A DNA stretch of 38,778 nucleotides from Desulfuromonadaceae bacterium UBA6124 (GCA_002423365.1 DIVU01000161.1:1950-40727); one strand, 5' to 3'. Shown: positions 1-17,469, numbered from the stretch's first letter. Program-made: numbers and translations. The notes: a model not told the origin generated them from the sequence alone.

Positions 1-52
1 CACGGGACTGAAAATCCCGGTGTCGGCAGTTCAATTCTGCCCCTGCCCACCA
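1..52 (+). tRNA. tRNA-Phe (GAA), 3' part; 5' end lies outside the window
   Basis: Anticodon arm CGGGA-CTGAAAA-TCCCG, T arm GGCAG-TTCAATT-CTGCC, acceptor 3' strand CCTGCCC, discriminator A49, encoded CCA at 50-52. Confidence 0.95.
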
Positions 53-191: not shown

Positions 192-281
192 CCGGTTGCC
201 CTCCTTTGTGTTCGCCATCGCATGCAAGCAGGAAGTCCACGGAAACCGGATCGATTACAAGTATCTTCTGCACCTACGTCC
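192..281 (+). repeat. Interspersed repeat module C (right-end type, ends CACCTACGTCC)
   Basis: Colinear and similar to 15242-15331 (shared CACGGAAACCGG..TACAAGTAT.TTCTGCACCTACGTCC). CTACGTCC is duplicated again at 289-296. Confidence 0.8.
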
Positions 282-416
282 GCCCAGACTACGTCCCCCC
301 AGACTCCTCCAACAACCCGGAGAGAACTCGGGCCTCTCTTGCCTTCGCGTCCTGCGCGTCTCGGCCCAAGCCCTTTTCCGTTGCCTCGCCCCGCGCCATT
401 CACTAGGATAGCAGCC

Positions 417-979
417 ATGCAAGAAACGGGAGGCGTTGTGGGGCGTCAGAGGGGGGTCCCTCCTCCGAAAAAGATCGTCATCATTGCCGGCCCGAACGGG
501 GCGGGGAAAATACGTTTGCCCGGGAGTACTTGCCCCGCGAGGCCGACTGCCCTGATTTCATCAACGTGGATCTGATCGCGGCCGGCCTCTCCCCCTTCGA
601 CCCGGCACGGGCCGCCCTCCAAGCCGGACGGGTGATGCTCCAGGAGATCCGACGTCGCGTCCGGGCCGGTGAGAGTTTTGCCTTCGAGACCACCCTGTCT
701 GGCCGGCAATACGCGCGGTGGATCTCCCGGTGGCAGGCGGCCGGGTACCATGTGAAGTTGATCTTCCTCCAGTTGCCCACTGTCGATCTGGCCCTGGCCC
801 GGGTCGCCGCCCGGGTAGCTCAAGGGGGGCACGAGGTGCCAGCGGTTGTGGTGCGACGCCGCTTCACCGCAGGCTGGCAGCACTTCCAGGCACTCTATCG
901 CCCCCTCGTCGATTGCTGGATCGTGTACGACACTGCCGAGGCGAAGCCGCGTCCCCTCGCCTCAGGAGATAAGCGATGA
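417..979 (+). pseudogene. Zeta-toxin-like / AAA_33 P-loop ATPase with a frameshift at ~510
   Basis: RBS AGGA then ATG417. IVIIAGPNGAGK Walker A is in one frame; the rest (TFAREYLPREADCPDFINVDLIAAGLSPF, SFAFETTLSG, RVAQGGH) is in another. A 1-nt loss in AAA-A(c)T-ACG would restore GKTTF. Confidence 0.8.
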
Positions 980-1158
980 GTCAGCGCCTATTACAGTCCC
1001 GCGACCCCGACATCCTCGCCAGCGAAGCCGCCCTGCGGCGTGCCGCCCGGCGCGCCCGGGCCATTGGCCGTCAGACCGGCGCGCCCGTGTACGTGCTCAA
1101 GGCGGGCCGGATCGTCGATCTTACGCCGGCGCGCAAGGTTTCTTCGCGATCCAGATAG
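976..1158 (+). CDS. Small basic protein, probable partner/antitoxin of the zeta-like ATPase
   Basis: ATGA overlap with the upstream stop. 60 aa with an AALRRAARRAR...G.PVYV..G.IV pattern typical of the small genes paired with this ATPase family. Confidence 0.65.
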   Translation: MSQRLLQSRDPDILASEAALRRAARRARAIGRQTGAPVYVLKAGRIVDLTPARKVSSRSR

Positions 1159-2056: not shown

Positions 2057-2272
2057 GTGGCGGTGCGGCGTGGGCCGTTGTCCAAGTCCGAAATTGCCGT
2101 CGCAGTTGGCAAGCAGGCGGTGGACGGTCAACCCCATTCCGCTGTCCGGCAGTTGCTCAAGACGGGACTCATCGCATACATGCTGTCCGACAAGCCCAAC
2201 AGCCGGCTGCAAAAGTACCGGCTGACCCTGGCCGGAGAGCGCGCGCTGAGGGAGCAGTTTCGCGAGCGATGA
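2057..2272 (+). pseudogene. Orphan C-terminal winged-helix fragment (Fic-like C-terminal / ATP-dependent regulator type)
   Basis: LS.SEIA...L...GLI....DKPNSRLQKYRLT..G is the characteristic C-terminal wHTH signature. No RBS or N-terminal domain; it abuts the IS end. Confidence 0.6.
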
Positions 2273-2404: not shown

Positions 2405-3091
2405 CTAGTAAACGGCAGCATACTTTTCGGTCAGCGATTCTCTTGCAGCGTACAGTTTTGCTTTAGATCTCACCAGCCACCACCAGGCGGCTCCAATACT
2501 CAATGCCAAAATCAACAATGATAGAACAGTCGCGATCGAGAAGTACGAAATCGTGATGCGCGTGGCAGGTTCTATCCGGACCAATTCAACACTACCCTCC
2601 GGTATGACAGACAGCAGTGCGTACACAATCCAAAAGGCTGCCGCTGCGAGGATGATTACAATTTCCCACAATACAAAACCCAAATTGGAGAGCGGCGGCA
2701 ATGCTGGTGTGGTTGGGAGTAAGAGGTAATTGGCAAGCAGCCCGTCTTGCTCAACAAAGTAACGGCGCATCAGGTTCACGCATCGCGCATAGAGGTACTG
2801 CTCCAAGCGTGCGTTAAGCAGCGCCAACGCTATTACAGCATCCAGAATGGCCACCACGATCATCAGCGTGGGGACGAAATGAGGATCAAGCGGAGTCGAT
2901 CTCTCTCGAGTAAGCAGCGTCGCCATAGTCAGAGGAACCGCATTGATACCCAGGAAGTAGTTGAATATTCTGACTTGCACATCGTGCAACTTGCCAAAGG
3001 CGGAGGATATATTTCTGTACTCTTCAAGGACGAATACTGCAGATGGCTGGGTGGTGCGGTCATCAGACGGAACACTGTCTTCTTGCTCCAC
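2405..3091 (-). CDS. Hypothetical multi-pass (~4 TM) membrane protein
   Basis: Long ORF. GTG3091 is preceded by AAGGGGG. Four hydrophobic segments follow a LEEYR..S...(helix) N-terminus. Confidence 0.7.
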   Translation of the reverse strand: MEQEDSVPSDDRTTQPSAVFVLEEYRNISSAFGKLHDVQVRIFNYFLGINAVPLTMATLLTRERSTPLDPHFVPTLMIVVAILDAVIALALLNARLEQYLYARCVNLMRRYFVEQDGLLANYLLLPTTPALPPLSNLGFVLWEIVIILAAAAFWIVYALLSVIPEGSVELVRIEPATRITISYFSIATVLSLLILALSIGAAWWWLVRSKAKLYAARESLTEKYAAVY

Positions 3092-3340
3092 GGTGGACCC
3101 CCTTGGAGATGAAAGGCTGGGCTGTGCTGACACGTCAGTTCACGTCAATCCCCTTGGCTGATCTTCTGTGCCTAGACACGGAACCGCATGTTGGCCCGAG
3201 AGAGGGCAATATCGTACGCCTGCCGGAAGTCGAAATCAACAAGGGCCCCTGCCGCGGCGCAAGCCGCGGTCAGTTTCCCATCAGGATACTGCGAAACGTC
3301 TATGGAAACGGTCGCTACACTGCAAGACGCAAAAAAGTGG

Positions 3341-3376: not shown

Positions 3377-4393
3377 ATGCATTTACACACTGCAGTCGAC
3401 ATTCCTGGAATTCTGGGCTACTGCGGTGCTTTCAAGGTGTTCCTCGCCTCGGCGCCGGCCTCCCTCCTGACCTCCCTCTCGATCACAGACGTACTCGACG
3501 AGGATACCGGTAAAGGCTACCAGCGGCCCTATAACAAGTGGCACAGCCTTGATTTCCGCCGTTACATCGTCCAACCTAGCGCCTCGACCATACCCCTCGT
3601 CTTTAATCTTCGCCCGGAATTCCGCAAGCGCTGGCGCCTGCTTCACCACCAGGGTGGCCCGCCCATCTTGCGCCTCCATCGCGGACAGCCTTGCCTTGCG
3701 GTGGTGGACGGCCAGCATCGGTTAGGCCAACTGTCGGACTTGACCGTCCCTCTCGCGTTTATGGCCTACATCGGCTTGGATGTGCGGTCAGAGATGTCCT
3801 TGTTCTCGACCATCAACAGCAAGTCCAGAGGCCTTGCGTCTTCGCTCACTGATTACCTATACAGTTCGTTGACAGACGACTTGCTCCAAGAGGCTCCTCA
3901 TCTGCTCCTTGCCAGACGTCTCAACGAGGACCCATCGTCGCCTTGGTTCAAGCTCATCCGGTATGGCGGCACGTCTACATCCAGCCCACATCGCCGGGTT
4001 TCTCTAAGGATGATGCAAAAGAGTATCGGGCGATTTCTGAAGAAGATCAGAGGTGCCGGGGCGAAGCCGGTTGATGACTGCTACCGAGTGATCCTCGCCT
4101 TTTGGACCGCTGTTCGAGATACGTTCCCTGATGAGTGGCAGGACCCGAGACGCCACATTCTTACGAAGGGTCTAGGGCTTTACTCTTTGATGCTCTTACT
4201 CACCGATCTTGCTGAATCTCGCCAGTTCTCCGAACTGACACAACTGGAATTCTATCGGTTGCTCGAACCGCTCAGGACTGGAATTGATTGGGGTTCGCGC
4301 GGTACCTTCGCTCAGGCCGGTGGCCACAAGGGAGCGGTTCAAGTGTATTTGACCCTGAAGGAGAAGATCTTCGATGCGCGTTCTTCTCGTTGA
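3377..4393 (+). CDS. DGQHR-domain (DndB-like, ParB/Srx superfamily) protein
   Basis: GYQRP and LAVVDGQHR motifs plus F.TINSK. Start placed at ATG3377 (ATG3302 is an alternative). Overlaps the next gene by 20 nt. Confidence 0.9.
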   Translation: MHLHTAVDIPGILGYCGAFKVFLASAPASLLTSLSITDVLDEDTGKGYQRPYNKWHSLDFRRYIVQPSASTIPLVFNLRPEFRKRWRLLHHQGGPPILRLHRGQPCLAVVDGQHRLGQLSDLTVPLAFMAYIGLDVRSEMSLFSTINSKSRGLASSLTDYLYSSLTDDLLQEAPHLLLARRLNEDPSSPWFKLIRYGGTSTSSPHRRVSLRMMQKSIGRFLKKIRGAGAKPVDDCYRVILAFWTAVRDTFPDEWQDPRRHILTKGLGLYSLMLLLTDLAESRQFSELTQLEFYRLLEPLRTGIDWGSRGTFAQAGGHKGAVQVYLTLKEKIFDARSSR

Positions 4394-5963
4394 ACCGGCT
4401 TATCGGCGAAGGGCATTGCAGACAGCGGCGGAGTCCGCCGATTGGTCTGATAACGGGAGCAGGGTGGACGACGAAAGGTTGTGGTATCCACCACTTGGAC
4501 TCCTAAAGTTGTCTCGCTATCACAAGCTGAGGGGCGATTCCGTCTCCCTCACTGTAGGGTGCGATGCCTCCACGCTGCCCACTGGAGACCTTATCCAGGG
4601 GGGTTCAACTTGGGATCGAATTTACATAACCACCCTGTTTACATTCACCCTTCGTCAGGCAATCGACACTATCAATTTCTACAAACAGGCGGTGGGCGGT
4701 ACTACCGCCAAGCTGTTTGTTGGGGGTATTGCGGCGACTATCCTTCCGGACAGCATCTTTGAGCAGACGGGGGTATATCCCATTCGAGGGATCCTCACAT
4801 CGTCCACCACAATCGGGATGACGGATGATGTGAACATCGATACGCTCTGCCCTGACTACGACGTTGTCGCCAGTAGACCATACGCCATTCAAGATACTTA
4901 CTATGCCTACACCTCTCGCGGATGCGTGAATCACTGTCCTTGGTGTGCAGTCCCAACACTTGAGCCGACCTTCGTTCCTTATATAGACATCCGACCTTCC
5001 ATGATCGAAATGCGCCGCCAGTACGGCGATAAGGCGCGCCTTAAGCTCATGGACAATAATGTGCTTGCATCCCCGGCGCTCAGCAGCATCGTTGACGACC
5101 TACTTTCCATGGGCTACGGGCGTGGCGATCATACTGAGACTCGACCAAAGAAGCAGCGAGTTGTAGATTTCAATCAAGGCCTGGATGCGAGTTTCATTAC
5201 TCAGCAGTCGATCGAGTGCATCTCCAAATTACACATCGCTCCCTTCCGGGTTGCGTTTGATCGCATTTCCGAAAAAGATTCATACGTTCGAGCGATTGAG
5301 CTAGCTGTGGCACACGGATTCCGCGATATCTCGAACTACATGCTCTTCAACTACTCTGACACGCCGCGGGACCTGTATGATCGGTTGCAGGTTAACATTG
5401 CCCTGAACGAGAGATATGCCTCTGGCGGGCGTCAGCGCCGTGCGGCCCAGATCTTCTGTTACCCAATGCGCTACGCACCTATCTCCGACTCTTGTCCGGG
5501 CGACGATCCGAATGTACGAGACAGGACGAACGCAGCGGATGCCACGTCTTGCGACTGGCTTGCGAACCCCTCGTGGACAAAGCGGTTCCTGAGGAATATC
5601 GAGATTATGAAAGGGGCGGCCCAAGGGGCAATTTCATCCACGCCGAGCCTTGCCCGAAGAACCATCGGTCACAGCTTCGAGGAGTTCCTCGCCAATCTCT
5701 ACATGCCCGAAGTGCTCTTGCGCTATCGCAACCAGCATGAGAAGCGCGTCTACGCGAAGGAGCCACGGCGAACCGCAGGCACAGGCGACGTGGAGGCATT
5801 CAGGAAGTTCATCCTCCGCCTTCTAGATCGTCGAGATGATTCATTTGAATTCTTCCATAATTCAGTTGCATCGAATTCGCGCGCGATTGTCTCTGACGGC
5901 CTTCGCCGATGTAGGGACAAAGAGATGGCCGCATGGTTCAGACTGTATCTGGAAAAGAGGTGA
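4374..5963 (+). CDS. Radical SAM protein with N-terminal B12-binding-like domain
   Basis: SRGCVNHCPWC (CxxxCxxC). N-terminal VLLVEP..YPPLGLLKLS..VGGIAATILP. DNN and DFNQGLD core motifs. Confidence 0.9.
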   Translation: MRVLLVEPAYRRRALQTAAESADWSDNGSRVDDERLWYPPLGLLKLSRYHKLRGDSVSLTVGCDASTLPTGDLIQGGSTWDRIYITTLFTFTLRQAIDTINFYKQAVGGTTAKLFVGGIAATILPDSIFEQTGVYPIRGILTSSTTIGMTDDVNIDTLCPDYDVVASRPYAIQDTYYAYTSRGCVNHCPWCAVPTLEPTFVPYIDIRPSMIEMRRQYGDKARLKLMDNNVLASPALSSIVDDLLSMGYGRGDHTETRPKKQRVVDFNQGLDASFITQQSIECISKLHIAPFRVAFDRISEKDSYVRAIELAVAHGFRDISNYMLFNYSDTPRDLYDRLQVNIALNERYASGGRQRRAAQIFCYPMRYAPISDSCPGDDPNVRDRTNAADATSCDWLANPSWTKRFLRNIEIMKGAAQGAISSTPSLARRTIGHSFEEFLANLYMPEVLLRYRNQHEKRVYAKEPRRTAGTGDVEAFRKFILRLLDRRDDSFEFFHNSVASNSRAIVSDGLRRCRDKEMAAWFRLYLEKR

Positions 5964-5968
5964 TAAGG

Positions 5969-7465
5969 ATGCCCCAGGCTCTCCTCGGTAAGCAGTTGCT
6001 CGATGTCATCGCGATCGGCATGTACAATACGCCGCTCATGACCCTCCGTGAGTATGTCCAGAATTCTGTTGATTCCATAGATGAGGCGGTTGAGAGTGGC
6101 ACACTGTCTACATCTAAGGGCCACGTGAAGATTCAACTCGATGGCGCCTCCCGCACCATTCTCATTGAAGATAACGGTGCTGGTATCCGGGCTCGAAATG
6201 TCGAAGGTCATTTGCTGACAATTGGCGGCAGCGCGAAACGTGCTGCAACAAATCGCGGTTTTCGAGGGATTGGTCGCCTTGGCGGACTTGGCTATTGCGA
6301 TGCATTGTTGTTTGAAACAAAAGCCGCAGGTGATGACGCAGTGTCTTGCGTCTGCTGGGATGGAGTTGCGCTGCGGAAGGAGCTAGGGGCGTCCGATGCG
6401 GCAGATGCCGTAGATGTCATCCGACGGATAGTGAAAGTGACGCAGCGGCGAATCGCCAAAGGCGACCCCGATCACTACTTTCGGGTAACGCTGAGGGGCG
6501 TACACCGATTTCACAACGATATTCTGATGGATATGCGGAATGTCTACAGATATCTATCACAGGTCGCGCCCGTTCCGTATGATCCTGAACAGTTCTCCTT
6601 TGTGGACAAGATTGAGGAACACCTTGGTAGCCTTGCGGGGTTTCGACATTACTCGCTGTCGCTCAATGGACGTCCAGTCTATCGTCCATATGCGGACACC
6701 ATCGAAGTCTCGCCCGGTCGTAATGACCGCATGCGGGACGTCACGCTATTTGATGTACCGGATAGCTCTGGAGGTACCATCGGCAAGGGCTGGTACGGAA
6801 TCACCGGCTTCCTTGCCTCACTCCCCGCGGCCTGTAGTATGCGGGGGGTCCGGCTTCGGCAGGGAAACATCGAAATCGCAAATGAATACTTCTTTGCCGA
6901 ATATCTGACTGAACGTCGCTTCTGCACTTGGCACATAGGGGAAGTACATTTCCGCCTTGGTTTGCCCCCGAACGGACGCCGTGATGGCTTCCACAACACA
7001 CCAGATTACGAGAAAGCCCTGGAATTTTTCCTCGTTCTTGGCAAACACCTCAGTAAGCTCTGTCGGGATTCCTCTAAGGAACGAGCTTCGACGCTAGGGG
7101 TAACACGCGAACTGGATACCGCTGAGCAATACCTGGAAGATGCTATCTTTCTGGATGCCGATCATGTGGCATCAATGCAAGAGACTCTCCTGCGCCGCAT
7201 GGGGCTGCTTCGAAAAAGACTTTCTACCCGGAAACCGCAGAATGGCCTTCTTGAACGAATCGAGGTGCTTGAGGGGCGCTTACGGGACCTCTCGAAGGAT
7301 GCGGCTCTGCTTCTCCATCGTTTGGACGGACGACGGCTCCGCCACGCGGAGCCGAAGGAACTCCTCCTCGATGTGTTTCGCCGATTGCTGGCGGACGGTG
7401 ATCACATTCTCATTGAGACAAAGCTTAAGACAATCCTAGAGCCGTATCTTACATCAGAACCCTGA
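5969..7465 (+). CDS. GHKL-family (MORC/Hsp90-like HATPase) ATPase
   Basis: REYVQNSVD (ExxxN), IEDNGAGI (DxGxG), GFRGIGRLGG. RBS GAGGTG overlaps the upstream stop. Helical C-terminus. Confidence 0.88.
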   Translation: MPQALLGKQLLDVIAIGMYNTPLMTLREYVQNSVDSIDEAVESGTLSTSKGHVKIQLDGASRTILIEDNGAGIRARNVEGHLLTIGGSAKRAATNRGFRGIGRLGGLGYCDALLFETKAAGDDAVSCVCWDGVALRKELGASDAADAVDVIRRIVKVTQRRIAKGDPDHYFRVTLRGVHRFHNDILMDMRNVYRYLSQVAPVPYDPEQFSFVDKIEEHLGSLAGFRHYSLSLNGRPVYRPYADTIEVSPGRNDRMRDVTLFDVPDSSGGTIGKGWYGITGFLASLPAACSMRGVRLRQGNIEIANEYFFAEYLTERRFCTWHIGEVHFRLGLPPNGRRDGFHNTPDYEKALEFFLVLGKHLSKLCRDSSKERASTLGVTRELDTAEQYLEDAIFLDADHVASMQETLLRRMGLLRKRLSTRKPQNGLLERIEVLEGRLRDLSKDAALLLHRLDGRRLRHAEPKELLLDVFRRLLADGDHILIETKLKTILEPYLTSEP

Positions 7466-7475
7466 TGCACCTCCG

Positions 7476-8471
7476 CTAGTCGCACTTCTTCAGTAATCGG
7501 AGGGTGAAAGTGTTAATCCTCTTGAGTTCAAATTTGCACTTATCCAGCTGGGCTGACGGCATATCGTCGATTGCCTTGTCCAGTCCGGCTTTCGCGACGT
7601 ACATACGGAACTTAGTGAGTGTCTTGAGCACACTGTTATTTACCCCGCGGGTCTCCGCAGTACTGTAGGACTGCTCAACCGGCATATCTTTATCCAGAAA
7701 CTGCTTGAGCGGCTTCCCGCCGGCAGCAATTACCTTGACCACCCTGTTGCGTATTTCAACAGCCCGGGCGATCTCTCCGCTCTTGATACGTGCGACTATC
7801 ACGCGATCCAGGTCGAGGTTTTCCTCTCGCGCCTTCCGTACCTTCCCTGATTTGAGGTACTCGTAATAATAGCTCCACCGCTGCGGGTCCTCGTCACCGT
7901 GGTCAACCATAAACTGGTACACTTTTACAAAGGTCCCGATGACTCGGGCCGACAGGCCAATCTCTTTGGTCATTTGGCTAATTGAAGCGTTGTGTTTCTT
8001 GAAGCGCCTCCACAGATAGCCGGCCTGTTCGAAGGGGCTCCAGTCCTTCCGCTTCGTAATATGGTACTCGCCCAGCAGGGCGAAGACGCACTCCTCCGGT
8101 ATGTTGGAGGGCAGCAAAGTACACTTTACCTGGCCCCATTCGATTGGGTTTCCTTCCGCGAGCTGTCGATAGGCGGCTAAGCGACTGTTACCTTCCAGAA
8201 CGACATAGTCTCCATCCCGAACAATCAGTGGCTCGATCACTCCGCCATTCGCTCGAATGGACGTCGCCAGCTCCTTCACATAATCGCCTTGGCGAAGACG
8301 CTCCTCGATCTCTCGCTGGCTGAGATCGTCTGACCCGCCATGCACTATCGAGTAGATGCGAGGATTGTCGGAGTAGAATTGCAAATCCTTCTGCTTGAGC
8401 ATGCAAGTACGTATGGGTATCTCCCTGCCCAAAATGGTGATGCTGCCATCAGCGCCATCAGGCAATTCCAT
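7476..8471 (-). CDS. ParB/Srx-like N-terminal domain protein (copy 2)
   Basis: NPRI...SIRANGGVIEPLIV...VVLEGNSR and H....KDWSPFEQA. RBS GGAGG. Confidence 0.82.
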   Translation of the reverse strand: MELPDGADGSITILGREIPIRTCMLKQKDLQFYSDNPRIYSIVHGGSDDLSQREIEERLRQGDYVKELATSIRANGGVIEPLIVRDGDYVVLEGNSRLAAYRQLAEGNPIEWGQVKCTLLPSNIPEECVFALLGEYHITKRKDWSPFEQAGYLWRRFKKHNASISQMTKEIGLSARVIGTFVKVYQFMVDHGDEDPQRWSYYYEYLKSGKVRKAREENLDLDRVIVARIKSGEIARAVEIRNRVVKVIAAGGKPLKQFLDKDMPVEQSYSTAETRGVNNSVLKTLTKFRMYVAKAGLDKAIDDMPSAQLDKCKFELKRINTFTLRLLKKCD

Positions 8472-8485
8472 GACAGTCCCTCCGA

Positions 8486-9967
8486 TTAGGCCTCTGCGCC
8501 AGAGCTCAGAATGTCATGAACGATCTCTCCGTAATCGTATGACATTCGGCTCGCATACTGCTCCTCGGAAATATCGCCTTGGGCCAGCTGGGCTGCAAGA
8601 TGCTTGGCGTCGAGCAGGTAGTCAATCCATTCGTCGATAGAATTGTGCATGATGACGTTGTATACGTGGCACACTTTCTTCTGGGAAATGCGGTGAATCC
8701 GATCTTGTGCCTGCAAGTAGTCGTCCAGGCTAAAACTTCTGTCATAGAAGAGTACGTGATTGGCAACCGTAAGCGTCAGCCCCTCTTTCGCCGACCCCGG
8801 TGTGGCAATCAATATATTCGCATCTGGTTTATGCAGGAACTGCTGCAATGATGTCTCGCGATCGTCCTGCTTCATCCGGCCGTGAATTCTCACCGTACCA
8901 AAAGATCGGAACTTCTTCGCGAGCCATTCAACATTATCGACAAAACCAGTCCACAGAATGCACTTCTCCTTCGCATCCATAATCTGCTTAACGATCCGCT
9001 CCGTTGGGGCAAGCTTGCCAGGCTCAGCATTGTAGGATTCATCGACTAAATAGGGGTTTGAGGCAATCTGAAGTAAACGAGTCAATCGCTTAACCAGCTC
9101 GTCCGAATCGTCCCGCAGTGGCACGCCATTATGGACAATCTCCGCCCAGGTCTGCTTTCGCACCTTCTCGTAAAGACGCAGCTGTTCCGGCTCCCATTCG
9201 GCGGGCACGGCCTCGACGACCTTCTCCGGGAGCTGAATAACTCCCCCCGCCTTTGTCTCCCTCACGGCAAAACGAGCAATGCGCGAGTGCAGGGCAGCTA
9301 GGGTCTCCTCGAAAGAGTTTCGGCGTTGTGAATTACTCGCCAAATCGTTTGAAAGATTGGCTGCCCGCTTGAAGTCTGGAAAACTCGTCCCAAGAGATAC
9401 ACCTTGGTCCAAGAACCATACTTGCGCCCAGAGATCGTAGGGACGATTAGCGATCGGAGTGCCGGTCATAATAACCCGTCGCTTGAACCGTGGCGCAAGG
9501 TCGAAGAATGCCTTGGCGGTTGTGGAGGAAGGGTTCTTTATCTTTGTGGCTTCATCAAGGATGACACCAACATCGCGAGTTCTCAGAAACAGCGCGAGTC
9601 GAGCGTGCTCGCTTACCACCACTTCATAGTGCGTCAAGATCAGACGTGAAGGACTATTGAGTACTAAGTAATTGTTACGTCTGTCTTGTGTCAGAAGCTT
9701 TGGGCGGAGATAGGTATGGGCTTGAAGTTCACGTTCCCAATTCCGAATCAATCCTTTCTTTACAACGAACAGGACTGTATCGACAAGTCTCTGATGAAGC
9801 CAGTACAGCATCAAGTCTATCGCAATCTTGGTCTTGCCGAGCCCTTGCTCATGGAATACCGCTCCAAACTCGAGATCACGAAGCGCGGCTACAGCGTTCG
9901 TCTGATAAGCATACGCTTGGTATTTGCAGTCCAAACGCGGTTCCTTACGCAGTACAATCTTCGGCAT
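8486..9967 (-). CDS. Stand-alone SNF2-family SF2 ATPase/helicase
   Basis: HEQGLGKT (I), ILDEAT (II), MTGTP (III), SAKEGLTL..ANHV (V), QAQDRIHRISQ (VI). Confidence 0.9.
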   Translation of the reverse strand: MPKIVLRKEPRLDCKYQAYAYQTNAVAALRDLEFGAVFHEQGLGKTKIAIDLMLYWLHQRLVDTVLFVVKKGLIRNWERELQAHTYLRPKLLTQDRRNNYLVLNSPSRLILTHYEVVVSEHARLALFLRTRDVGVILDEATKIKNPSSTTAKAFFDLAPRFKRRVIMTGTPIANRPYDLWAQVWFLDQGVSLGTSFPDFKRAANLSNDLASNSQRRNSFEETLAALHSRIARFAVRETKAGGVIQLPEKVVEAVPAEWEPEQLRLYEKVRKQTWAEIVHNGVPLRDDSDELVKRLTRLLQIASNPYLVDESYNAEPGKLAPTERIVKQIMDAKEKCILWTGFVDNVEWLAKKFRSFGTVRIHGRMKQDDRETSLQQFLHKPDANILIATPGSAKEGLTLTVANHVLFYDRSFSLDDYLQAQDRIHRISQKKVCHVYNVIMHNSIDEWIDYLLDAKHLAAQLAQGDISEEQYASRMSYDYGEIVHDILSSGAEA

Positions 9968-9984
9968 CTCAATTCCGCTTCACT

Positions 9985-10395
9985 TTAGCCAGGCAGTTGA
10001 TCCAGCACGACATGGCCATTGCTAGGTATGTCGAGGTCCCTACATATACGGGCCAAGATGCTCCTGGCGAGACGTGTCATATCCCACGGAACAGCCAATA
10101 CCAGTCGAGTTGTCAGGCCAGAATCACGGGTCTCCAAGAAGGCGGTCAACTGATCGAGTGTATGCTTGGTCTGCAAGTCCCAACGCGTCTTTGCCTCGCC
10201 AATCACAAGTTGAGAGTGTCGCGTATCGCGAACATATACGTCGGGTAGATAGCCATGAATCTTTGGAGGCCGGCTCAACCTCGTAAAATCTGGGTGGTCG
10301 ACAAGCATAAGCCCGGGGTCACCTGTGAGACAGTTGGCGCAAATCCAGTGCGCGAGGAGAGCAACCAGGGAGAGATGCGAAGAGGACTCGGACAT
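9985..10395 (-). CDS. Small putative PD-(D/E)xK nuclease
   Basis: E...H N-terminal helix, GYLPDVY and VIGEAKT. TAATG stop/start overlap with the upstream ParB-like gene. Confidence 0.7.
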   Translation of the reverse strand: MSESSSHLSLVALLAHWICANCLTGDPGLMLVDHPDFTRLSRPPKIHGYLPDVYVRDTRHSQLVIGEAKTRWDLQTKHTLDQLTAFLETRDSGLTTRLVLAVPWDMTRLARSILARICRDLDIPSNGHVVLDQLPG

Positions 10396-11408
10396 TACTC
10401 TTCAATCCCTATATCGCGGCACAAATCGACAAGAACATCTTTGGACTCAAACAACGCAGTGACATCCGAATCGTTGCGGCGCCGACGCATGCTCTGCAGC
10501 TCGGTGTAATTCAGGGTATCAATGCGTCTGCAAAACTCTCGCGCGAGTTCTTCCAGCGGGGTCTCTTGCAAGTTGGAGCTTGACGCGGGCGAATCCACAA
10601 CCTTCGCTGCTTCGGCTATATTGGAGTCGAGGAAGACACGCCGGGCCCTATCGTCCTTCAAGACTTGCGGCAACTTGCGAATCATCTGTAATGGGTAGAG
10701 CTTATGCGTATGTACCCATTCTGCAAAGTCCCCTTTGGTAAAACCCGCCTTGGCTATGGCTTCCTTTATCGTCTGTTTCTGAAGTTCAACGAAGGCGCTG
10801 AAGCGGGAGGCATCAAAGTCCTGGTCGCTCTCGATAACGGCGCGGTAGTGCGTCTCCATATCCGTGTAGGCGTCGATATATCGCTGAACATCCCGGCGGT
10901 CCCCGCCGCAGAAGTCGACGATTTGAGAAAAGGCAAGATTCTGGCGATTTCGTAGCATGTCGAGGTACTTGGCTTTAGAATACGGGTCCCATTCACGCGT
11001 CCCGACCAGATGCGCTTGGAGGCGTATTGCGTCTATCCCCTCTGGGTTAAGATCGTCATAGACCATCGCAGGAATGGAGGCCCATGGGCCATCGGGTTGA
11101 GTCCTCCGTAACTCGCGGTAAATATAAGTCCGCGTATTGCCTTCTATGACAACCAGTCTTCCGTCGGCATGGCGATTTACGATAATGGGGTGAATTATTC
11201 CACGGTTCGTCTGGATGGACTGTCTTAGTCCTTGAAAACTCGGCCCGCTGGCGTCGTCCCGGGCTCCACCGGATAGGGCCAGCTCAACCTGTTCGCGAGT
11301 CGGATTTGGATACATCTCGAGAATCCGAGCCACCCGCGGATTCGCGAGATCCATTTCAAGCGATTCAATGTCCAGGAGCTCAAACGCGCAGTTCAGCTGG
11401 TCTGCCAT
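10395..11408 (-). CDS. ParB/Srx-like N-terminal domain protein (copy 1)
   Basis: ATG11408 after GGAGAGAGGA. NPRV...SIQTNRGIIHPIIV...VVIEGNTR and HLVGTREWDPYSKA. Confidence 0.82.
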   Translation of the reverse strand: MADQLNCAFELLDIESLEMDLANPRVARILEMYPNPTREQVELALSGGARDDASGPSFQGLRQSIQTNRGIIHPIIVNRHADGRLVVIEGNTRTYIYRELRRTQPDGPWASIPAMVYDDLNPEGIDAIRLQAHLVGTREWDPYSKAKYLDMLRNRQNLAFSQIVDFCGGDRRDVQRYIDAYTDMETHYRAVIESDQDFDASRFSAFVELQKQTIKEAIAKAGFTKGDFAEWVHTHKLYPLQMIRKLPQVLKDDRARRVFLDSNIAEAAKVVDSPASSSNLQETPLEELAREFCRRIDTLNYTELQSMRRRRNDSDVTALFESKDVLVDLCRDIGIEE

Positions 11409-11479: not shown

Positions 11480-11516
11480 ATAAAGAAACACCGACTCCGA
11501 GGGTGGGAGTCGGCGC
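11480..11516 (-). terminator. Intrinsic-terminator-like hairpin, possibly bidirectional
   Basis: CCGACTCC (11491-98) pairs with GGAGTCGG (11506-13). T-rich tails on both strands. Confidence 0.5.
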
Positions 11517-11718
11517 TTTATTTTCCCTGGGGCCACCCTCTGGATCATCAGGTGACATTCTCTGAACACCAAGGGATCTACGACACTTATTTTTACCACA
11601 AATCTGCAACTCTCGGCAAGAACGCTGAGAGCCGGCCCCACAAAATAGGACAGGCGGTTAAGTGGAAACTCTGCTCTACTTGACGGGACAACTCGACGGC
11701 CCCTCAAGGAGAGCAGCC

Positions 11719-12350: not shown

Positions 12351-12638
12351 ATGGCCGAACGCAAACTCATCACGATCTCGGTCTCGCCCCAGCTCCTCGA
12401 CAAGGCGGAGCGCCTCGCGGCGCAGGAGAATCGGACCAAGTCGGAGCTGGTGCGCGAGGCCTTGCGCCTTTACATCGACACGAGCGAGCTCCGGCGGCGG
12501 ACCACGCGGGAGCAACTTGCCCCCCTTCTGGACCGCGTCCAGACGCGGACCCTCGCCGTCCCGCCCCTTGAGATCCGGCGCCTCATCCGCGAGGCGGTGC
12601 GGGCGGCCCGGCGTACCGCGCCCTCGGTCAAGGCATGA
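12351..12638 (+). CDS. CopG/ribbon-helix-helix antitoxin
   Basis: LITISVS...AERLA..ENRTKSELVREAL. ATGA overlap with the PIN gene. Confidence 0.88.
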   Translation: MAERKLITISVSPQLLDKAERLAAQENRTKSELVREALRLYIDTSELRRRTTREQLAPLLDRVQTRTLAVPPLEIRRLIREAVRAARRTAPSVKA

Positions 12639-13069
12639 GAGTCGTCCTCGACACCAATGTGGTCGTGTCGGCCGCGCTCATCCGGGGCGGCAATGAAGAC
12701 CGCATTCTCCGCGCCTGGCAGCGTGGGGCGTTCGACGTGGTGGTGTCCCAAGCAGTCCTCGCAGAGATCGGACGGGCGCTTCTCTACGAGAAGCTTCGGA
12801 AATTCCGCTGGATGTCCGAGGCGGAGATCGTCGCACTCCTCGAACTGCTCGGGCAAGAAAGCATCCTCGTCCCGGGACGCGTGACGGTGACGGAGAGTCG
12901 GGATCCCACCGATGACAAGTTTCTCGCGGCCGCGATCGAGGGGCGCGCCGGGTACCTGATATCTGGCGACAAGGATCTCCTGACGGTCAAGCCCCCCCGC
13001 GGGATCCGGATTGTCCGTCCCGCCGCGTTCCTGGAGATTCTCCGGAAAGGAAGAGATCCCAGGCCGTAG
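12635..13069 (+). CDS. PIN-domain toxin (VapC-like, PIN_3 type)
   Basis: VVLDTNVVVSA, RDPTDDKFL, LISGDKDLL acidic active-site motifs. Confidence 0.92.
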   Translation: MRVVLDTNVVVSAALIRGGNEDRILRAWQRGAFDVVVSQAVLAEIGRALLYEKLRKFRWMSEAEIVALLELLGQESILVPGRVTVTESRDPTDDKFLAAAIEGRAGYLISGDKDLLTVKPPRGIRIVRPAAFLEILRKGRDPRP

Positions 13070-15072: not shown

Positions 15073-15332
15073 ACGTCATCCGGGACGTTGCTTCCGAACC
15101 TGCTGTGTGCTAGCCATGACCCCATCATGCCCCGGGAGGGACGGCGCGATGCCCCCACGTCCCTTCATCACGTGATGGGGTTCAAGCTGTTTCCGGCTGG
15201 CCACTGGTTCGGGCACAGACCGCTGGCCAACCGGAAGCGATCCGGCTGACCTCCTTCGGGCTCGTCATCGTATGCGAGCGGGCAGTTCACGGAAACCGGT
15301 TCGTCTACAAGTATTTTCTGCACCTACGTCCC
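15073..15332 (+). repeat. Composite miniature element: module A left part + module C
   Basis: 15077-15206 matches the A copies and 15242-15331 matches 192-281. Bounded by GGGACGT ... ACGTCCC. Confidence 0.88.
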
Positions 15333-15446
15333 CTCAGGCATTCGGGCAGCCCGACTTATGACGTCGCGCGCGTCGCGCTGCCTCCCGGCCGAACATCTGC
15401 GCGTCAAAGTGGCTTTGGAGTCGTGTGTTTCATCCCGTGTTCAGAA

Positions 15447-15566: not shown

Positions 15567-16631
15567 ATGGTCATGCGGCTGGCTGAGCGAGAGCACAAGC
15601 TCCTGGAGGATGCGCTGGAGGCATTCATCCGCGGGACGGGATTGCATGCCGCCATCCTCGCCGACGAGCCAAAGACTGTTGAGGGCCGTTACCCCGATGC
15701 GGTGATCGAGGTCGGGGGACCTGGCAAGCCGCTCCGGCTCGCCACGAAGATCAGGGCCATCGATCGGGCCATCGCCCTCGCCACGGCCAAGCAGCATCTC
15801 GAAAGGCTCGGTAAGCCGGGCCTGCTCGTGACGCCCTACCTGACCGCCGAGCTTGCCGCCTACTGTCGGACGACGCTCGACCTCCAGTTCATGGACACGG
15901 CCGGGAACGCGTACCTGCGCGCCCCGGGCCTGTACGTCTTCATCCGAGGTGAGCGTCCGCGGGGCGGGGTGGGACGGGCCGCCGGCACCCGGGGCGGAGG
16001 CACGGCGGCCGCGCTGCGCGTCGTGTTCGCCCTGCTCTGCGCGCCGGAACTCCTCAACGCTCCGTATCGGGACATCGCACGCGCTGCCGGTGTCGCGCTG
16101 GGTGGGGTGGGGTTGGTGCTCCTCGACCTCCACGGTAGAGGCTACGTGCTGGGCGCTCAGCGCACCCGCGATCGCCGCCTGAGAGAGCCGGGACGACTGG
16201 CTGAGGAATGGGTAACCAACTACCCGATCAAGCTACGTCCGCGGCTCAATCCGCGCCGGTTCGGTGTGGCCGACCCGCGCTGGTGGCAGCAGGCCAGGCT
16301 GCCGGAGGGCGCCTTCTGGGGGGGAGAAGTTGCCGCCGCCAAGCTCACCAGGCATCTGAATCCGACAACTTACACGATCTACATCGATCCGGGCAAGCGG
16401 CGCGAAGGTATCGGCCTGCTGGTGCGAGACCATCGGCTGCGCGCCGACCCGGACGGCCAGCTCGAGATCCTTGACGCCTTCTGGAATTTCCCGGGGAGGG
16501 CAAAGCAGCCCGATCTCGTGCCGCCGCTCCTGGTCTATGCTGACCTGTTGGCCACCCTGGATCCTCGCAATCTGGAGATCGCCAAGCGGATCCGGGAAGA
16601 ACACGTGGACCATGCGCTCCGTTCCGCGTGA
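15567..16631 (+). CDS. Type IV TA antitoxin, AbiEi-like
   Basis: FMDTAGNAYL, central HTH (YRDIARAAGVALG), WGGEVAA, PLLVYADL. Overlaps the NTase gene. Confidence 0.85.
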   Translation: MVMRLAEREHKLLEDALEAFIRGTGLHAAILADEPKTVEGRYPDAVIEVGGPGKPLRLATKIRAIDRAIALATAKQHLERLGKPGLLVTPYLTAELAAYCRTTLDLQFMDTAGNAYLRAPGLYVFIRGERPRGGVGRAAGTRGGGTAAALRVVFALLCAPELLNAPYRDIARAAGVALGGVGLVLLDLHGRGYVLGAQRTRDRRLREPGRLAEEWVTNYPIKLRPRLNPRRFGVADPRWWQQARLPEGAFWGGEVAAAKLTRHLNPTTYTIYIDPGKRREGIGLLVRDHRLRADPDGQLEILDAFWNFPGRAKQPDLVPPLLVYADLLATLDPRNLEIAKRIREEHVDHALRSA

Positions 16632-17469
16632 GCGTCGTCTCGATCCGGATATGCTGGAAGTCTTGCGACACGTGGATGGTGTGGCGCGGGATCTGGCCGT
16701 CGACTATTTTGTGGTCGGGGCGATGGCACGGGACATCCTGCTGACCGGTGTCTTCGGGCTCTCGGCGGGGCGGGCAACCCGAGACGTGGATCTCGCGGTG
16801 GCCATGAAGGACTGGCAGGAATTCGAAGCGATGAAGAGCCGCCTCGTTCGAGCGGGTGCGTTCGGAACCGACGAGCGCATCGCGCAGCGGCTGTACTGCC
16901 TGTTCGGCTCCGGCGACACCGGTTATCCTGTCGATCTCATTCCATTCGGCGGCGTGGAGCAGCGAGAGGGCATAATCGCCTGGCCGCCCGATGGCGCCAT
17001 GGTGATGAATGTGGCCGGTTATGGCGAGGCGTTCGCTTCCGCCATCCTGGTAGAAGTGGAGCCCGGCTTCGCCCCCCGCGTGGTCTCCTTGGCGGGCCTG
17101 GCAATCCTCAAGTTTATCGCGTGGGGCGAACGGGGCGCCGGCGATTCCCGCGACGCGATCGACCTCGCAACTCTGCTCCGCCAGTACGGAGCTGCGGGCA
17201 ACGCGGACCGGTTATACGGGGCCGAGATCGGCGTCCTGGAAGCCGTGAGCTACGATTTCGATCTCGCCGGGGCCCGGTTGCTCGGGATGGATGCCGGGCG
17301 CATCGTGGCGCCATCGACACGGAAACAGATCGTCACACTGTTTGACGACTCGGCGCGCGTGGACCGCCTTGTTCTCCATCTGGCCCAGGGGCTGCGCGCC
17401 GCGCAGAGCGCTCTGGCCGAGGCTGGCCAGTTGCTTGCCCAATTTCAAGCAGGATTCCAGGGGCTGTGA
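16612..17469 (+). CDS. Type IV TA toxin, AbiEii-like nucleotidyltransferase
   Basis: VVGAMARD, RATRDVD, DLIPFG, LK..AW..R...D..D. Confidence 0.85.
   Translation: MRSVPRERRLDPDMLEVLRHVDGVARDLAVDYFVVGAMARDILLTGVFGLSAGRATRDVDLAVAMKDWQEFEAMKSRLVRAGAFGTDERIAQRLYCLFGSGDTGYPVDLIPFGGVEQREGIIAWPPDGAMVMNVAGYGEAFASAILVEVEPGFAPRVVSLAGLAILKFIAWGERGAGDSRDAIDLATLLRQYGAAGNADRLYGAEIGVLEAVSYDFDLAGARLLGMDAGRIVAPSTRKQIVTLFDDSARVDRLVLHLAQGLRAAQSALAEAGQLLAQFQAGFQGL

What the first reader, a model, noticed from the sequence alone, without database searches (positions are those of the whole stretch)
3377..11408. Candidate undescribed seven-gene DNA-modification/defence system: DGQHR-radical SAM-GHKL >< ParB-SNF2-nuclease-ParB
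Seen: two operons with overlapping or near-abutting genes (20-nt overlap, 5-nt gap, TAATG overlap, 14-17 nt gaps) converge with only 10 nt between the final stops. They share the same lowered GC, sit near a tRNA, and all frames and catalytic motifs look intact. Known: DGQHR proteins occur in Dnd and Dpd DNA-modification loci, and prokaryotic MORC-type GHKL ATPases, SNF2 ATPases, ParB-like domains and PD-(D/E)xK nucleases recur in restriction-modification-like loci. No DNA methyltransferase, DndC/D/E, DpdA/TGT or Brx gene is present, and I cannot match the set to a named system. Inference: a two-armed system in which one arm (radical SAM-centred) marks or senses DNA and the other (SNF2 + nuclease + ParB pair) restricts.
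Basis: partly seen in the sequence, partly recalled or inferred. Interest (0 to 1): 0.92.

Follow-up and report, generated by a model that had tools for sequence, protein, structure and literature searches.

The report
Radical-SAM-centred modular DNA defence island
Seven intact, horizontally acquired genes form one copy of a widespread, unnamed gene system in which an unstudied radical SAM enzyme with a vitamin-B12-type domain is paired with swappable nuclease/motor modules, and it likely protects against phage by marking the cell's own DNA with a chemistry not yet described.

Summary
Observation confirmed: all seven genes, junctions and motifs are as described, in a 53.8% GC island (genome 61%) beside a tRNA. 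All seven recur together in 12 of 29 non-redundant loci holding radical SAM (rSAM), SNF2 and ParB, in three arrangements. It is not a fixed seven-gene unit. The ParB-nuclease-SNF2-ParB arm almost always has the rSAM beside it, but the rSAM also pairs with PbeA/C/D, HerA, PD-lambda-5A, DrmA/B or type IV Cas genes, often where a DNA methylase or DndC normally sits. Two loci 93.5% identical across the core carry different arms. The model has a cobalamin-type class B fold. Best reading (0.45): restriction-modification-like, with the rSAM as self-marking enzyme. Rivals: a protein-modifying guard (0.2) or a nucleotide-making enzyme (0.17). No function is shown, and my defence-island test was inconclusive. 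No full PADLOC match; the only printed mention found is probably one line on an HSP90 plus rSAM neighbourhood. This scan has reported the system before on other DNA (nine earlier notes).

The parts
1..49 (+). 3' part of a tRNA gene (anticodon GAA, Phe, read by eye); probable insertion hotspot
   Evidence: Rfam RF00005, 34.2 bits, cut at the 5' end; no duplicated 3' end found in the genome
2405..3133 (-). Membrane protein, 242 aa; possible accessory effector, not part of the conserved set
   Evidence: Pfam 8xMP E 4e-4, under cut-off; relatives beside the same rSAM family in L055/L056, L040 and L087
3377..4393 (+). DndB/DpdB-like ParB-fold protein, 338 aa; Gly variant of a DCQHR clade
   Evidence: TIGR03187 126.5 bits, over cut-off; DpdB 75 against cut-off 300; start Met conserved in alignment; motif counts; model resembles ParB/Srx chains only weakly
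4374..5963 (+). Radical SAM enzyme, 529 aa, with an N-terminal cobalamin-binding-type domain; the constant core of the system
   Evidence: CxxxCxxC invariant; model pLDDT 88.6; best folds AprD4 Z 17.0 (rmsd 4.0, 360 aligned), MgmA Z 16.4 (4.0, 332), TsrM/MiaB/RimO Z 14.3; 2564 homologues among 8000 scored
5969..7465 (+). Hsp90/paraMORC-like GHKL ATPase, 498 aa
   Evidence: HATPase_c_3 37.4 bits; best solved relatives HtpG and TRAP1; adjacent to the rSAM in 43 of 56 loci
7476..8471 (-). ParB-like protein 2, 331 aa (NPR, EGNSR, helix-turn-helix)
   Evidence: ParB_N E 0.002; weak PD-Lambda-5_A and PDC-M38A hits; alignment
8486..9967 (-). Stand-alone SWI2/SNF2 ATPase, 493 aa
   Evidence: SNF2-rel_dom 93.8 bits, Helicase_C 61.8 bits; 49-59% identity to 15 orthologues
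9985..10395 (-). Small predicted PD-(D/E)xK nuclease, 136 aa
   Evidence: PD51 and E67-A-K69 conserved in alignment; no Pfam hit; nearest named Atlas clusters are PDDEXK_11 and AHJR-like at 0.87-0.88, leads only
10395..11408 (-). ParB-like protein 1, 337 aa (NPR, EGNTR); paralogue of ParB2
   Evidence: ParB_N E 0.003; 28% identity to ParB2 over 158 aa; alignment

Best explanation
The island is one copy of a modular gene system whose constant core is a radical SAM enzyme with a cobalamin-type domain, and it likely works like restriction-modification, with that enzyme likely marking self DNA and the ParB-nuclease-SNF2-ParB arm likely cutting or blocking unmarked DNA. Shown: the gene set, intact motifs, the fold class, mobility, and swapping of the partner arm. 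Inferred steps: (1) the enzyme makes a 5'-deoxyadenosyl radical from SAM, abstracts a hydrogen from a nucleotide in DNA, and adds a methyl group from methylcobalamin at an unactivated carbon, as class B enzymes do (established chemistry, recalled); (2) the Hsp90-like ATPase clamps or presents the substrate, or loads the enzyme, and the DndB-like NTPase drives or regulates it, as DpdB and DndB do in their systems; (3) the two ParB paralogues form an NTP-gated DNA clamp, SNF2 translocates, and the small nuclease cuts where the mark is absent. The atom modified and the target sequence are unknown.
For: One-sided dependence. Searching from the arm: 7 of 8 plasmid records with a ParB2 match also hold the rSAM within a few kb (the eighth is a weak hit, not fetched); 7 of 8 viral-contig loci have it adjacent and the eighth has a distant rSAM of the same superfamily overlapping ParB1. 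Searching from the rSAM: only 8 of 27 well-flanked loci carry this arm. Position: the rSAM follows PbeA-PbeC-PbeD-like genes (5 of those 27 loci; PADLOC PbeA 742 bits, PbeC 405 bits), also in two genomes where no dndC was found (G127, G331; 94% and 92% complete), while PMC10853773 (passages) says such modules recruit Dnd genes or cytosine methylases. It directly follows PD-Lambda-5_A in L123 (240 bits), whose normal system was labelled with a methyltransferase domain and called RM+Abi-like (PMC9519451 passages), and follows DrmA-DrmB plus a NERD helicase in L121. Arms exclude each other (0 of 17 arm loci have Pbe) and swap: L027 and L037 are 93.5% identical over 4.2 kb of core but carry Pbe versus PLD-HerA arms. 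GHKL + SNF2 + restriction-fold nuclease is the paraMORC R-M layout (PMC2292703, parts 1-2 of 4 read). Only 2 of 103 scanned neighbours were C5 DNA methylases (L087, 5.9 kb away in its own operon; L136, a distant phage member).
Against: No experiment. Cobalamin binding is untested: Pfam B12-binding is 16.6 bits against a cut-off of 32.1, and the top fold match AprD4 is a dehydratase that, from memory, does not use cobalamin. The top Foldseek hit MgmA methylates a protein. No DNA-binding domain was identified in the rSAM. Some partners (cyclase-like protein, DGQHR-HEPN, PIN) look like suicide effectors that need no self mark. G222 (100% complete) has the four-gene arm plus a DGQHR gene and no family member was found, though the operon runs to a contig end. 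CxC/Pbe modules also occur without Dnd genes in many bacteria. The neighbour-enrichment test showed no excess (9 of 55 against 12 of 94). The PD-lambda-5A and DrmA/B cases are one locus each. Most plasmid hits are rhizobial kin.
Confidence: 0.45

Rival explanations
1. Guard or antitoxin model: the radical SAM enzyme and the Hsp90-like ATPase act on a protein, not DNA. The chaperone would present the partner effector, the enzyme would modify it and hold it inactive, and infection (for example loss of SAM) would release it.
For: Top Foldseek hit is the protein methylase MgmA (E 3.6e-10). [quoted passage not shown] Partners are chemically diverse.
Against: The partners share no fold that one modifying enzyme could recognise; most are DNA motors and nucleases. 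The GHKL is missing in 13 of 56 loci, including Pbe loci L094 and L095. The same preprint notes the cyclase is also inserted into R-M and BREX operons as a backup.
Confidence: 0.2
2. Nucleotide model: the enzyme converts a free nucleotide into an antiviral product or signal, as viperins do, which the three ParB-fold proteins would bind to switch on the nuclease arm.
For: Best VIA match is AprD4, a radical sugar-diol dehydratase (Z 17.0, tied within 1 with MgmA). A DGQHR-family gene lies near the rSAM in 38 of 51 loci, several as long forms, one with a weak HEPN hit. ParB folds bind CTP, ATP or GTP (PMC12704722 passages).
Against: Viperin itself scores only Z 8.9 and lacks the N-terminal domain. 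HerA, BglII-like and Pbe-only loci have no ParB-fold partner in view. It does not explain the methylase-like position.
Confidence: 0.17
3. Not immunity: a mobile DNA-repair, recombination or element-maintenance cassette (for example radical repair of a DNA lesion with clamps and a motor).
For: Found on plasmids, viral contigs and beside recombinases; spore photoproduct lyase is a radical SAM DNA-repair enzyme (Z 8.1); no neighbour enrichment; distant family members sit in phage replication regions (L076, L136).
Against: Partner modules are recognised defence parts (PbeA/C, DrmA/B, PD-Lambda-5_A, HerA). Patchy spread (0 of 9 congeners, 9 of 401 phylum genomes) and arm swapping are typical of conflict systems.
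Confidence: 0.12

Closest known systems
Prokaryotic MORC/paraMORC restriction-modification operons (Iyer, Abhiman and Aravind 2008, PMC2292703)
   Same: GHKL ATPase with a SWI2/SNF2 helicase and a restriction-fold nuclease; sporadic, laterally moved.
   Different: No DNA methylase; a radical SAM gene sits beside the GHKL; MORC motif absent; the paper has no occurrence of 'radical' or 'ParB'.
Dnd phosphorothioation with PbeABCD (CxC-ABC-ATPase/DndE systems, PMC10853773)
   Same: DndB-like ParB-fold protein; relatives of this core carry PbeA, PbeC and a DndE-like gene.
   Different: No dndA/C/D/E here, and dndC not found in the genome (79% complete); the paper's two 'radical SAM' mentions concern DndC only; its supplement could not be read.
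Dpd 7-deazaguanine modification-restriction system
   Same: DpdB-like DGQHR protein; SNF2-type helicase (DpdE-like hits).
   Different: No DpdA transglycosylase, DpdC or preQ0 genes in the locus; DpdB score 75 against cut-off 300.
PD-lambda-5 (PMC9519451)
   Same: ParB-like proteins with the same NPR/EGNxR pattern (weak PADLOC hits); in L123 a PD-Lambda-5_A gene is followed by this rSAM family.
   Different: Two ParB paralogues plus nuclease and SNF2; no classical methyltransferase.
Class B (cobalamin-dependent) radical SAM enzymes: MgmA, TsrM, TokK, OxsB, and the related AprD4
   Same: N-terminal Rossmann-like domain plus radical SAM barrel over about 330-390 aligned residues.
   Different: 10-17% identity; no sequence-level match in the PDB; those enzymes act on proteins or small molecules, none of the listed hits on DNA.
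PAACC + HSP90 + radical SAM neighbourhood (bioRxiv 10.64898/2026.10.19.760177, section 32)
   Same: Probably the same rSAM-HSP90 pair (L005, L126, L131).
   Different: One line only, read as toxin-antitoxin-like; no DGQHR, ParB, SNF2 or Pbe contexts in the passages seen; supplements closed.

Membership tests
Radical SAM superfamily | CxxxCxxC motif on a partial TIM barrel | tested here: met
   C184/C188/C191 invariant in 53 of 53 rows; top 29 VIA rows are radical SAM enzymes
Class B cobalamin-dependent radical SAM | N-terminal cobalamin-binding-type Rossmann domain | tested here: met
   Top fold matches span residues 1-450; residues 1-150 match AerR and a photocobilin protein (Z 7.9, 7.4); Pfam B12-binding is under cut-off here and just over it in relative L129 (33 bits)
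Class B cobalamin-dependent radical SAM | Binds cobalamin and transfers a methyl group | not testable with these tools
   Needs reconstitution; AprD4 has the fold without this activity (recalled)
Methylthiotransferases (MiaB/RimO) | Three further conserved cysteines for a second cluster (recalled definition) | tested here: not met
   Besides the triad only C63 (45 of 53) and C513 (32 of 53) recur
MORC family | GHKL ATP-binding motifs | tested here: met
   E28, N32, D68-N-G, G97-F-R-G invariant
MORC family | GhXhhpXXRhl motif in the S5 domain (PMC2292703) | tested here: not met
   The likely matching stretch reads RGVRLRQGNIEI at 292, no Arg at that place (placed by eye)
paraMORC R-M operons | SF2 helicase and restriction-fold nuclease nearby | tested here: met
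   SNF2; PD..EAK protein (nuclease call rests on motif and weak leads)
paraMORC R-M operons | DNA methylase gene in the operon (frequent, not universal) | tested here: not met
   None among the eight proteins
Dnd (DndABCDE) | dndC, dndD, dndE | tested here: not met
   No hits in the locus; TIGR03183 not found in G000, 79% complete
Dnd (DndABCDE) | DndB-type DGQHR protein | tested here: inconclusive
   DGQHR domain over cut-off, Pfam DndB 27.3 against 29.1; a separate DCQHR clade
Dpd | DpdA transglycosylase with DpdB and DpdC | tested here: not met
   No DpdA or DpdC hit; DpdB far below cut-off; rest of the genome not searched for dpdA
PbeABCD | HKD-helicase, CxC ABC ATPase, DndE-like gene | tested here: not met
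   Absent from this locus and from a six-frame search of G000; present in relatives
PD-lambda-5 | ParB-like A protein plus methyltransferase | tested here: not met
   Best PD-Lambda-5_A score 21 bits over about 80 residues; no methyltransferase
Anti-phage system (any) | Reduces phage plating or plasmid uptake | not testable with these tools
   Needs cloning and challenge

The most novel reading that the evidence does not exclude
A new class of DNA self-mark for bacterial immunity: a B12-dependent radical enzyme that methylates (or otherwise alters) an unactivated position of genomic DNA, possibly the sugar or backbone, and serves as a plug-in replacement for DNA methylases and DndC across at least six unrelated restriction arms (ParB-nuclease-SNF2-ParB, PbeA/C/D, HerA, PD-lambda-5A, DrmA/B, BglII-like), with deeper relatives coupled to type IV CRISPR effector genes.
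Probability: 0.33. Interest if true: 0.93.

Novelty: new variant of a known kind. Interest (0 to 1): 0.74.

Why it matters
Known bacterial self-marks come from a short list of chemistries (base methylation by classical methyltransferases, phosphorothioate, 7-deazaguanine). An enzyme family with 371 clusters at 50% identity (E up to 1e-30) that repeatedly occupies the marking position would add radical, possibly B12-gated, chemistry to that list and could explain Pbe-type modules that lack Dnd genes. It is directly testable: all seven genes lie as one operon on plasmids of cultured soil bacteria (Rhizobium leguminosarum WSM1325 pR132505, Mesorhizobium NZP2077).

Tried and rejected
Sequence search of the PDB with the rSAM profile: 0 matches. 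Foldseek with the DGQHR model: nothing at E up to 0.001, weak ParB/Srx rows only. Defence-island enrichment: 9 of 55 neighbours of 13 arm-bearing loci against 12 of 94 control ORFs from 14 arbitrary regions had a PADLOC hit at 1e-10; many hits in both sets are housekeeping homologues and one control region lay about 20 kb from an rSAM locus, so this is inconclusive; strong neighbours were Tiamat (L040, L081) and a C5-methylase operon (L087). att-site search: no second copy of the tRNA 3' end; an empty-site comparison with congeners was uninformative. Promoter and terminator scans were at chance level, with no terminator between the converging stops. No RNA holder listed. Assembly error as the cause of Gly for Cys: rejected, since 11 other proteins, among them the closest homologues, share Gly and a run contig over 3456-3792 shows no other letter (one sample, possibly the source). 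Sulfiredoxin-like role for the DCQHR Cys: not pursued, as this copy lacks it. Literature: eight answered searches plus searches found no description of the seven-gene set. Three comparative-genomics papers most likely to mention such contexts were not held, and the PMC10853773 supplement was unreadable. A recalled report of a B12 radical SAM enzyme making dimethylcytosine in DNA was not found, so I could not compare it. A crude motif scan for methylases missed a known D12 enzyme and was replaced by Pfam.
Full report
Observation. The block is 53.8% GC in a genome whose 8-kb windows average 61.5%; 0.9% of 335 windows are as low. A tRNA 3' part lies at 1-49. The genes are single-copy in the genome. 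The rSAM was found in 0 of 9 congeners and 1 of 60 relatives and in 9 of 401 phylum genomes, own included, so the block is a patchy, acquired island.

What the proteins are. The 529-aa protein has an invariant CxxxCxxC (53 of 53 rows). Its model (pLDDT 88.6) matches two-domain radical SAM enzymes with a cobalamin-type N-terminal domain: AprD4 Z 17.0 (rmsd 4.0, 360 aligned) and MgmA Z 16.4 (4.0, 332) are tied, then TsrM, MiaB and RimO at 14.3. It lacks the extra cysteine set recalled for methylthiotransferases. It has no PADLOC hit and no sequence-level PDB match. The family is large: 2564 hits among 8000 scored candidates, and 371 clusters at 50% identity with E up to 1e-30. The GHKL is Hsp90/HtpG-like and lacks the MORC motif given in PMC2292703. 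The DGQHR protein belongs to a clade whose motif is mostly DCQHR (106 Cys, 12 Gly, 2 Ser among the top 120); this copy and most of its nearest homologues have Gly. ParB1 and ParB2 are paralogues (28% over 158 aa). The small protein's nuclease call rests on a conserved PD...EAK and on weak Atlas leads.

Do the seven travel together? Yes, often. Among 29 non-redundant loci that hold rSAM, SNF2 and a ParB, 12 have all seven (my count from the table). The arm is upstream on the same strand in 23, convergent as here in 5, divergent in 1, with the internal order ParB1-nuclease-SNF2-ParB2 kept in most. Rhizobial plasmids with about 30% rSAM identity carry all seven as one operon.

Is it a fixed unit? 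No. The metagenome scan returned the best 80 of 541 confirmed matches from a partial scan; I collapsed them to 70 at 95% rSAM identity (this hid L037 behind L027). GHKL is adjacent in 43 of 56 loci with enough downstream DNA, and a DGQHR-family gene is near in 38 of 51 (the DCQHR orthologue in 23). Of 27 loci with at least 5 kb upstream and 1.5 kb downstream, 8 have the four-gene arm, 5 PbeA plus PbeC, 8 a 770-aa DGQHR protein and 3 a 458-aa DGQHR protein; none of 17 arm loci has Pbe. L027 and L037 share 93.5% DNA identity over 4.2 kb covering DCQHR-rSAM-GHKL yet carry different upstream arms. On a quick tree of 82 rSAM proteins the arm label needs 16 changes (at least 11 forced by well-supported branches; shuffled mean 25), so it is both inherited and repeatedly exchanged (labels set by hand, duplicates and fragments under 400 aa left out).

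The reverse search is one-sided. From ParB2: 7 of 8 plasmid records also hold the rSAM nearby (six distinct plasmids, mostly rhizobial kin); 7 of 8 viral-contig loci have it adjacent and the eighth has a distant relative (hhalign 97.7%) overlapping ParB1. In the phylum sample, G121 has ParB1-nuclease-SNF2-BglII-like-rSAM, while G222 has the arm and a DGQHR gene up to a contig end and no family member elsewhere; two further ParB hits had no arm. A restriction arm that rarely appears without its partner, and a partner that accepts many arms, is the pattern expected of a protective modification enzyme (inference).

Position supports that. The family follows PbeA/C/D-like genes, also in two genomes where dndC was not found; PMC10853773 (passages) says these modules recruit Dnd genes or cytosine methylases, but also that they occur without Dnd genes in many taxa. 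It follows PD-Lambda-5_A in L123 and DrmA-DrmB plus a NERD helicase in L121, one locus each, and a deeper branch follows type IV cas8-cas11-cas7-cas5 in L129 and cas7-cas5 in L130. Classical methylases were rare among neighbours: 2 C5 enzymes in 103 scanned ORFs (103 of 174 candidates, with most of the rest scanned) and one D12 enzyme in a phage locus.

Coupling within the core. A predicted rSAM-GHKL complex gave weak support: score 0.35, best of 3 controls 0.00, one of three runs 0.00, contact agreement at least 0%, partner pLDDT at least 76. The mark was reached by 116 of 157 solved and 2 of 215 mismatched pairs, but at 0.60 or under by only 18 of 157 solved pairs and by both mismatches. I give it little weight. 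One record fuses a degenerate DGQHR protein to the rSAM (P0241) and two join GHKL and rSAM pieces; single records that may be broken.

Against. Nothing here shows function. Cobalamin binding is not shown. The two best folds point to other substrates (a protein for MgmA, a sugar diol for AprD4), which gives the guard and nucleotide rivals. My neighbour test showed no enrichment (9 of 55 against 12 of 94), though the control was imperfect. G222 may be an arm without the enzyme.

What is in print. Searches found no description of this set. Seen: PMC2292703 (parts 1-2 of 4 and passages); passages of PMC10853773, PMC3226654, PMC12839542, PMC12704722, PMC9519451, PMC5699537 and bioRxiv 2026.09.30.754977; passages and section 32 of bioRxiv 2026.10.19.760177, which lists a three-gene cyclase-HSP90-radical SAM neighbourhood that probably equals L005/L126/L131. 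Three relevant comparative papers were not held, and supplements of PMC10853773 and of the preprints were not readable; they may list these neighbourhoods. PADLOC here is the 2023 release. Earlier notes of this scan describe the same system in other genomes; they are not independent evidence.

Verdict. Real, intact, mobile and unnamed in the sources I could test. It works most likely like a paraMORC/Dnd/Dpd-type restriction-modification system with a radical SAM enzyme in the marking role (0.45), and it is not a member of any of those families. About 0.8 that it is a defence system of some kind. Novelty: new variant of a known kind, with about a one-in-three chance of a new DNA chemistry. Interest 0.74.

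Noticed in passing
L129:7037-12570 and L130:8345-12594: Type IV CRISPR effector genes (cas8, cas11, cas7, cas5 in L129; cas7, cas5 scanned in L130) are followed directly by a member of this rSAM family and a second radical SAM gene; a CysH-type GKDS motif was not found in either locus.
   Followed up: partly
L089-L092 (rhizobial and Novosphingobium plasmids): A PIN_8 protein plus a second GHKL paralogue accompanies the core in all four annotated plasmids viewed, in varying orientation.
   Followed up: partly
window 416-979 and 976-1158 (+): By eye, a zeta-toxin-like P-loop gene whose frame is broken near 509, followed by a short possible antitoxin; no family hit was obtained (one search scanned another frame).
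   Followed up: partly
window 2078-2236 (+): Remnant of a winged-helix C-terminus, 51% identical over 53 aa to the Schlafen/AlbA_2 protein that flanks the same system in L065.
   Followed up: partly
window 12635-13069 (+), 15567-17469 (+): A PIN-looking gene (by eye) with a small upstream partner, and an AbiEi/AbiEii pair: further toxin-antitoxin modules close to the island.
   Followed up: partly
window 192-287 and 15242-15337: A 96-bp stretch repeated at 82% identity, once after the tRNA and once before abiEi; unexplained.
   Followed up: no
window 11486-11518: A 13-pair G+C-rich hairpin about 80 nt upstream of the ParB1 start, followed on the - strand by a T-rich run; possible attenuator.
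   Followed up: no
L040:1-4254 and L081:16631-19999: Tiamat (TmtA) genes lie next to complete seven-gene loci.
   Followed up: no
L136:8910-11068: In a viral contig a C5 cytosine methylase lies directly upstream of a distant member of the rSAM family, a layout that could give double modification of cytosine.
   Followed up: no
L040:13230-14648, L055/L056:3235-3894, L087:4886-6016: Relatives of the window's membrane protein (2405-3133) recur beside the rSAM family; the L040 copy is fused to a 5'-nucleotidase (NT5C) domain.
   Followed up: partly
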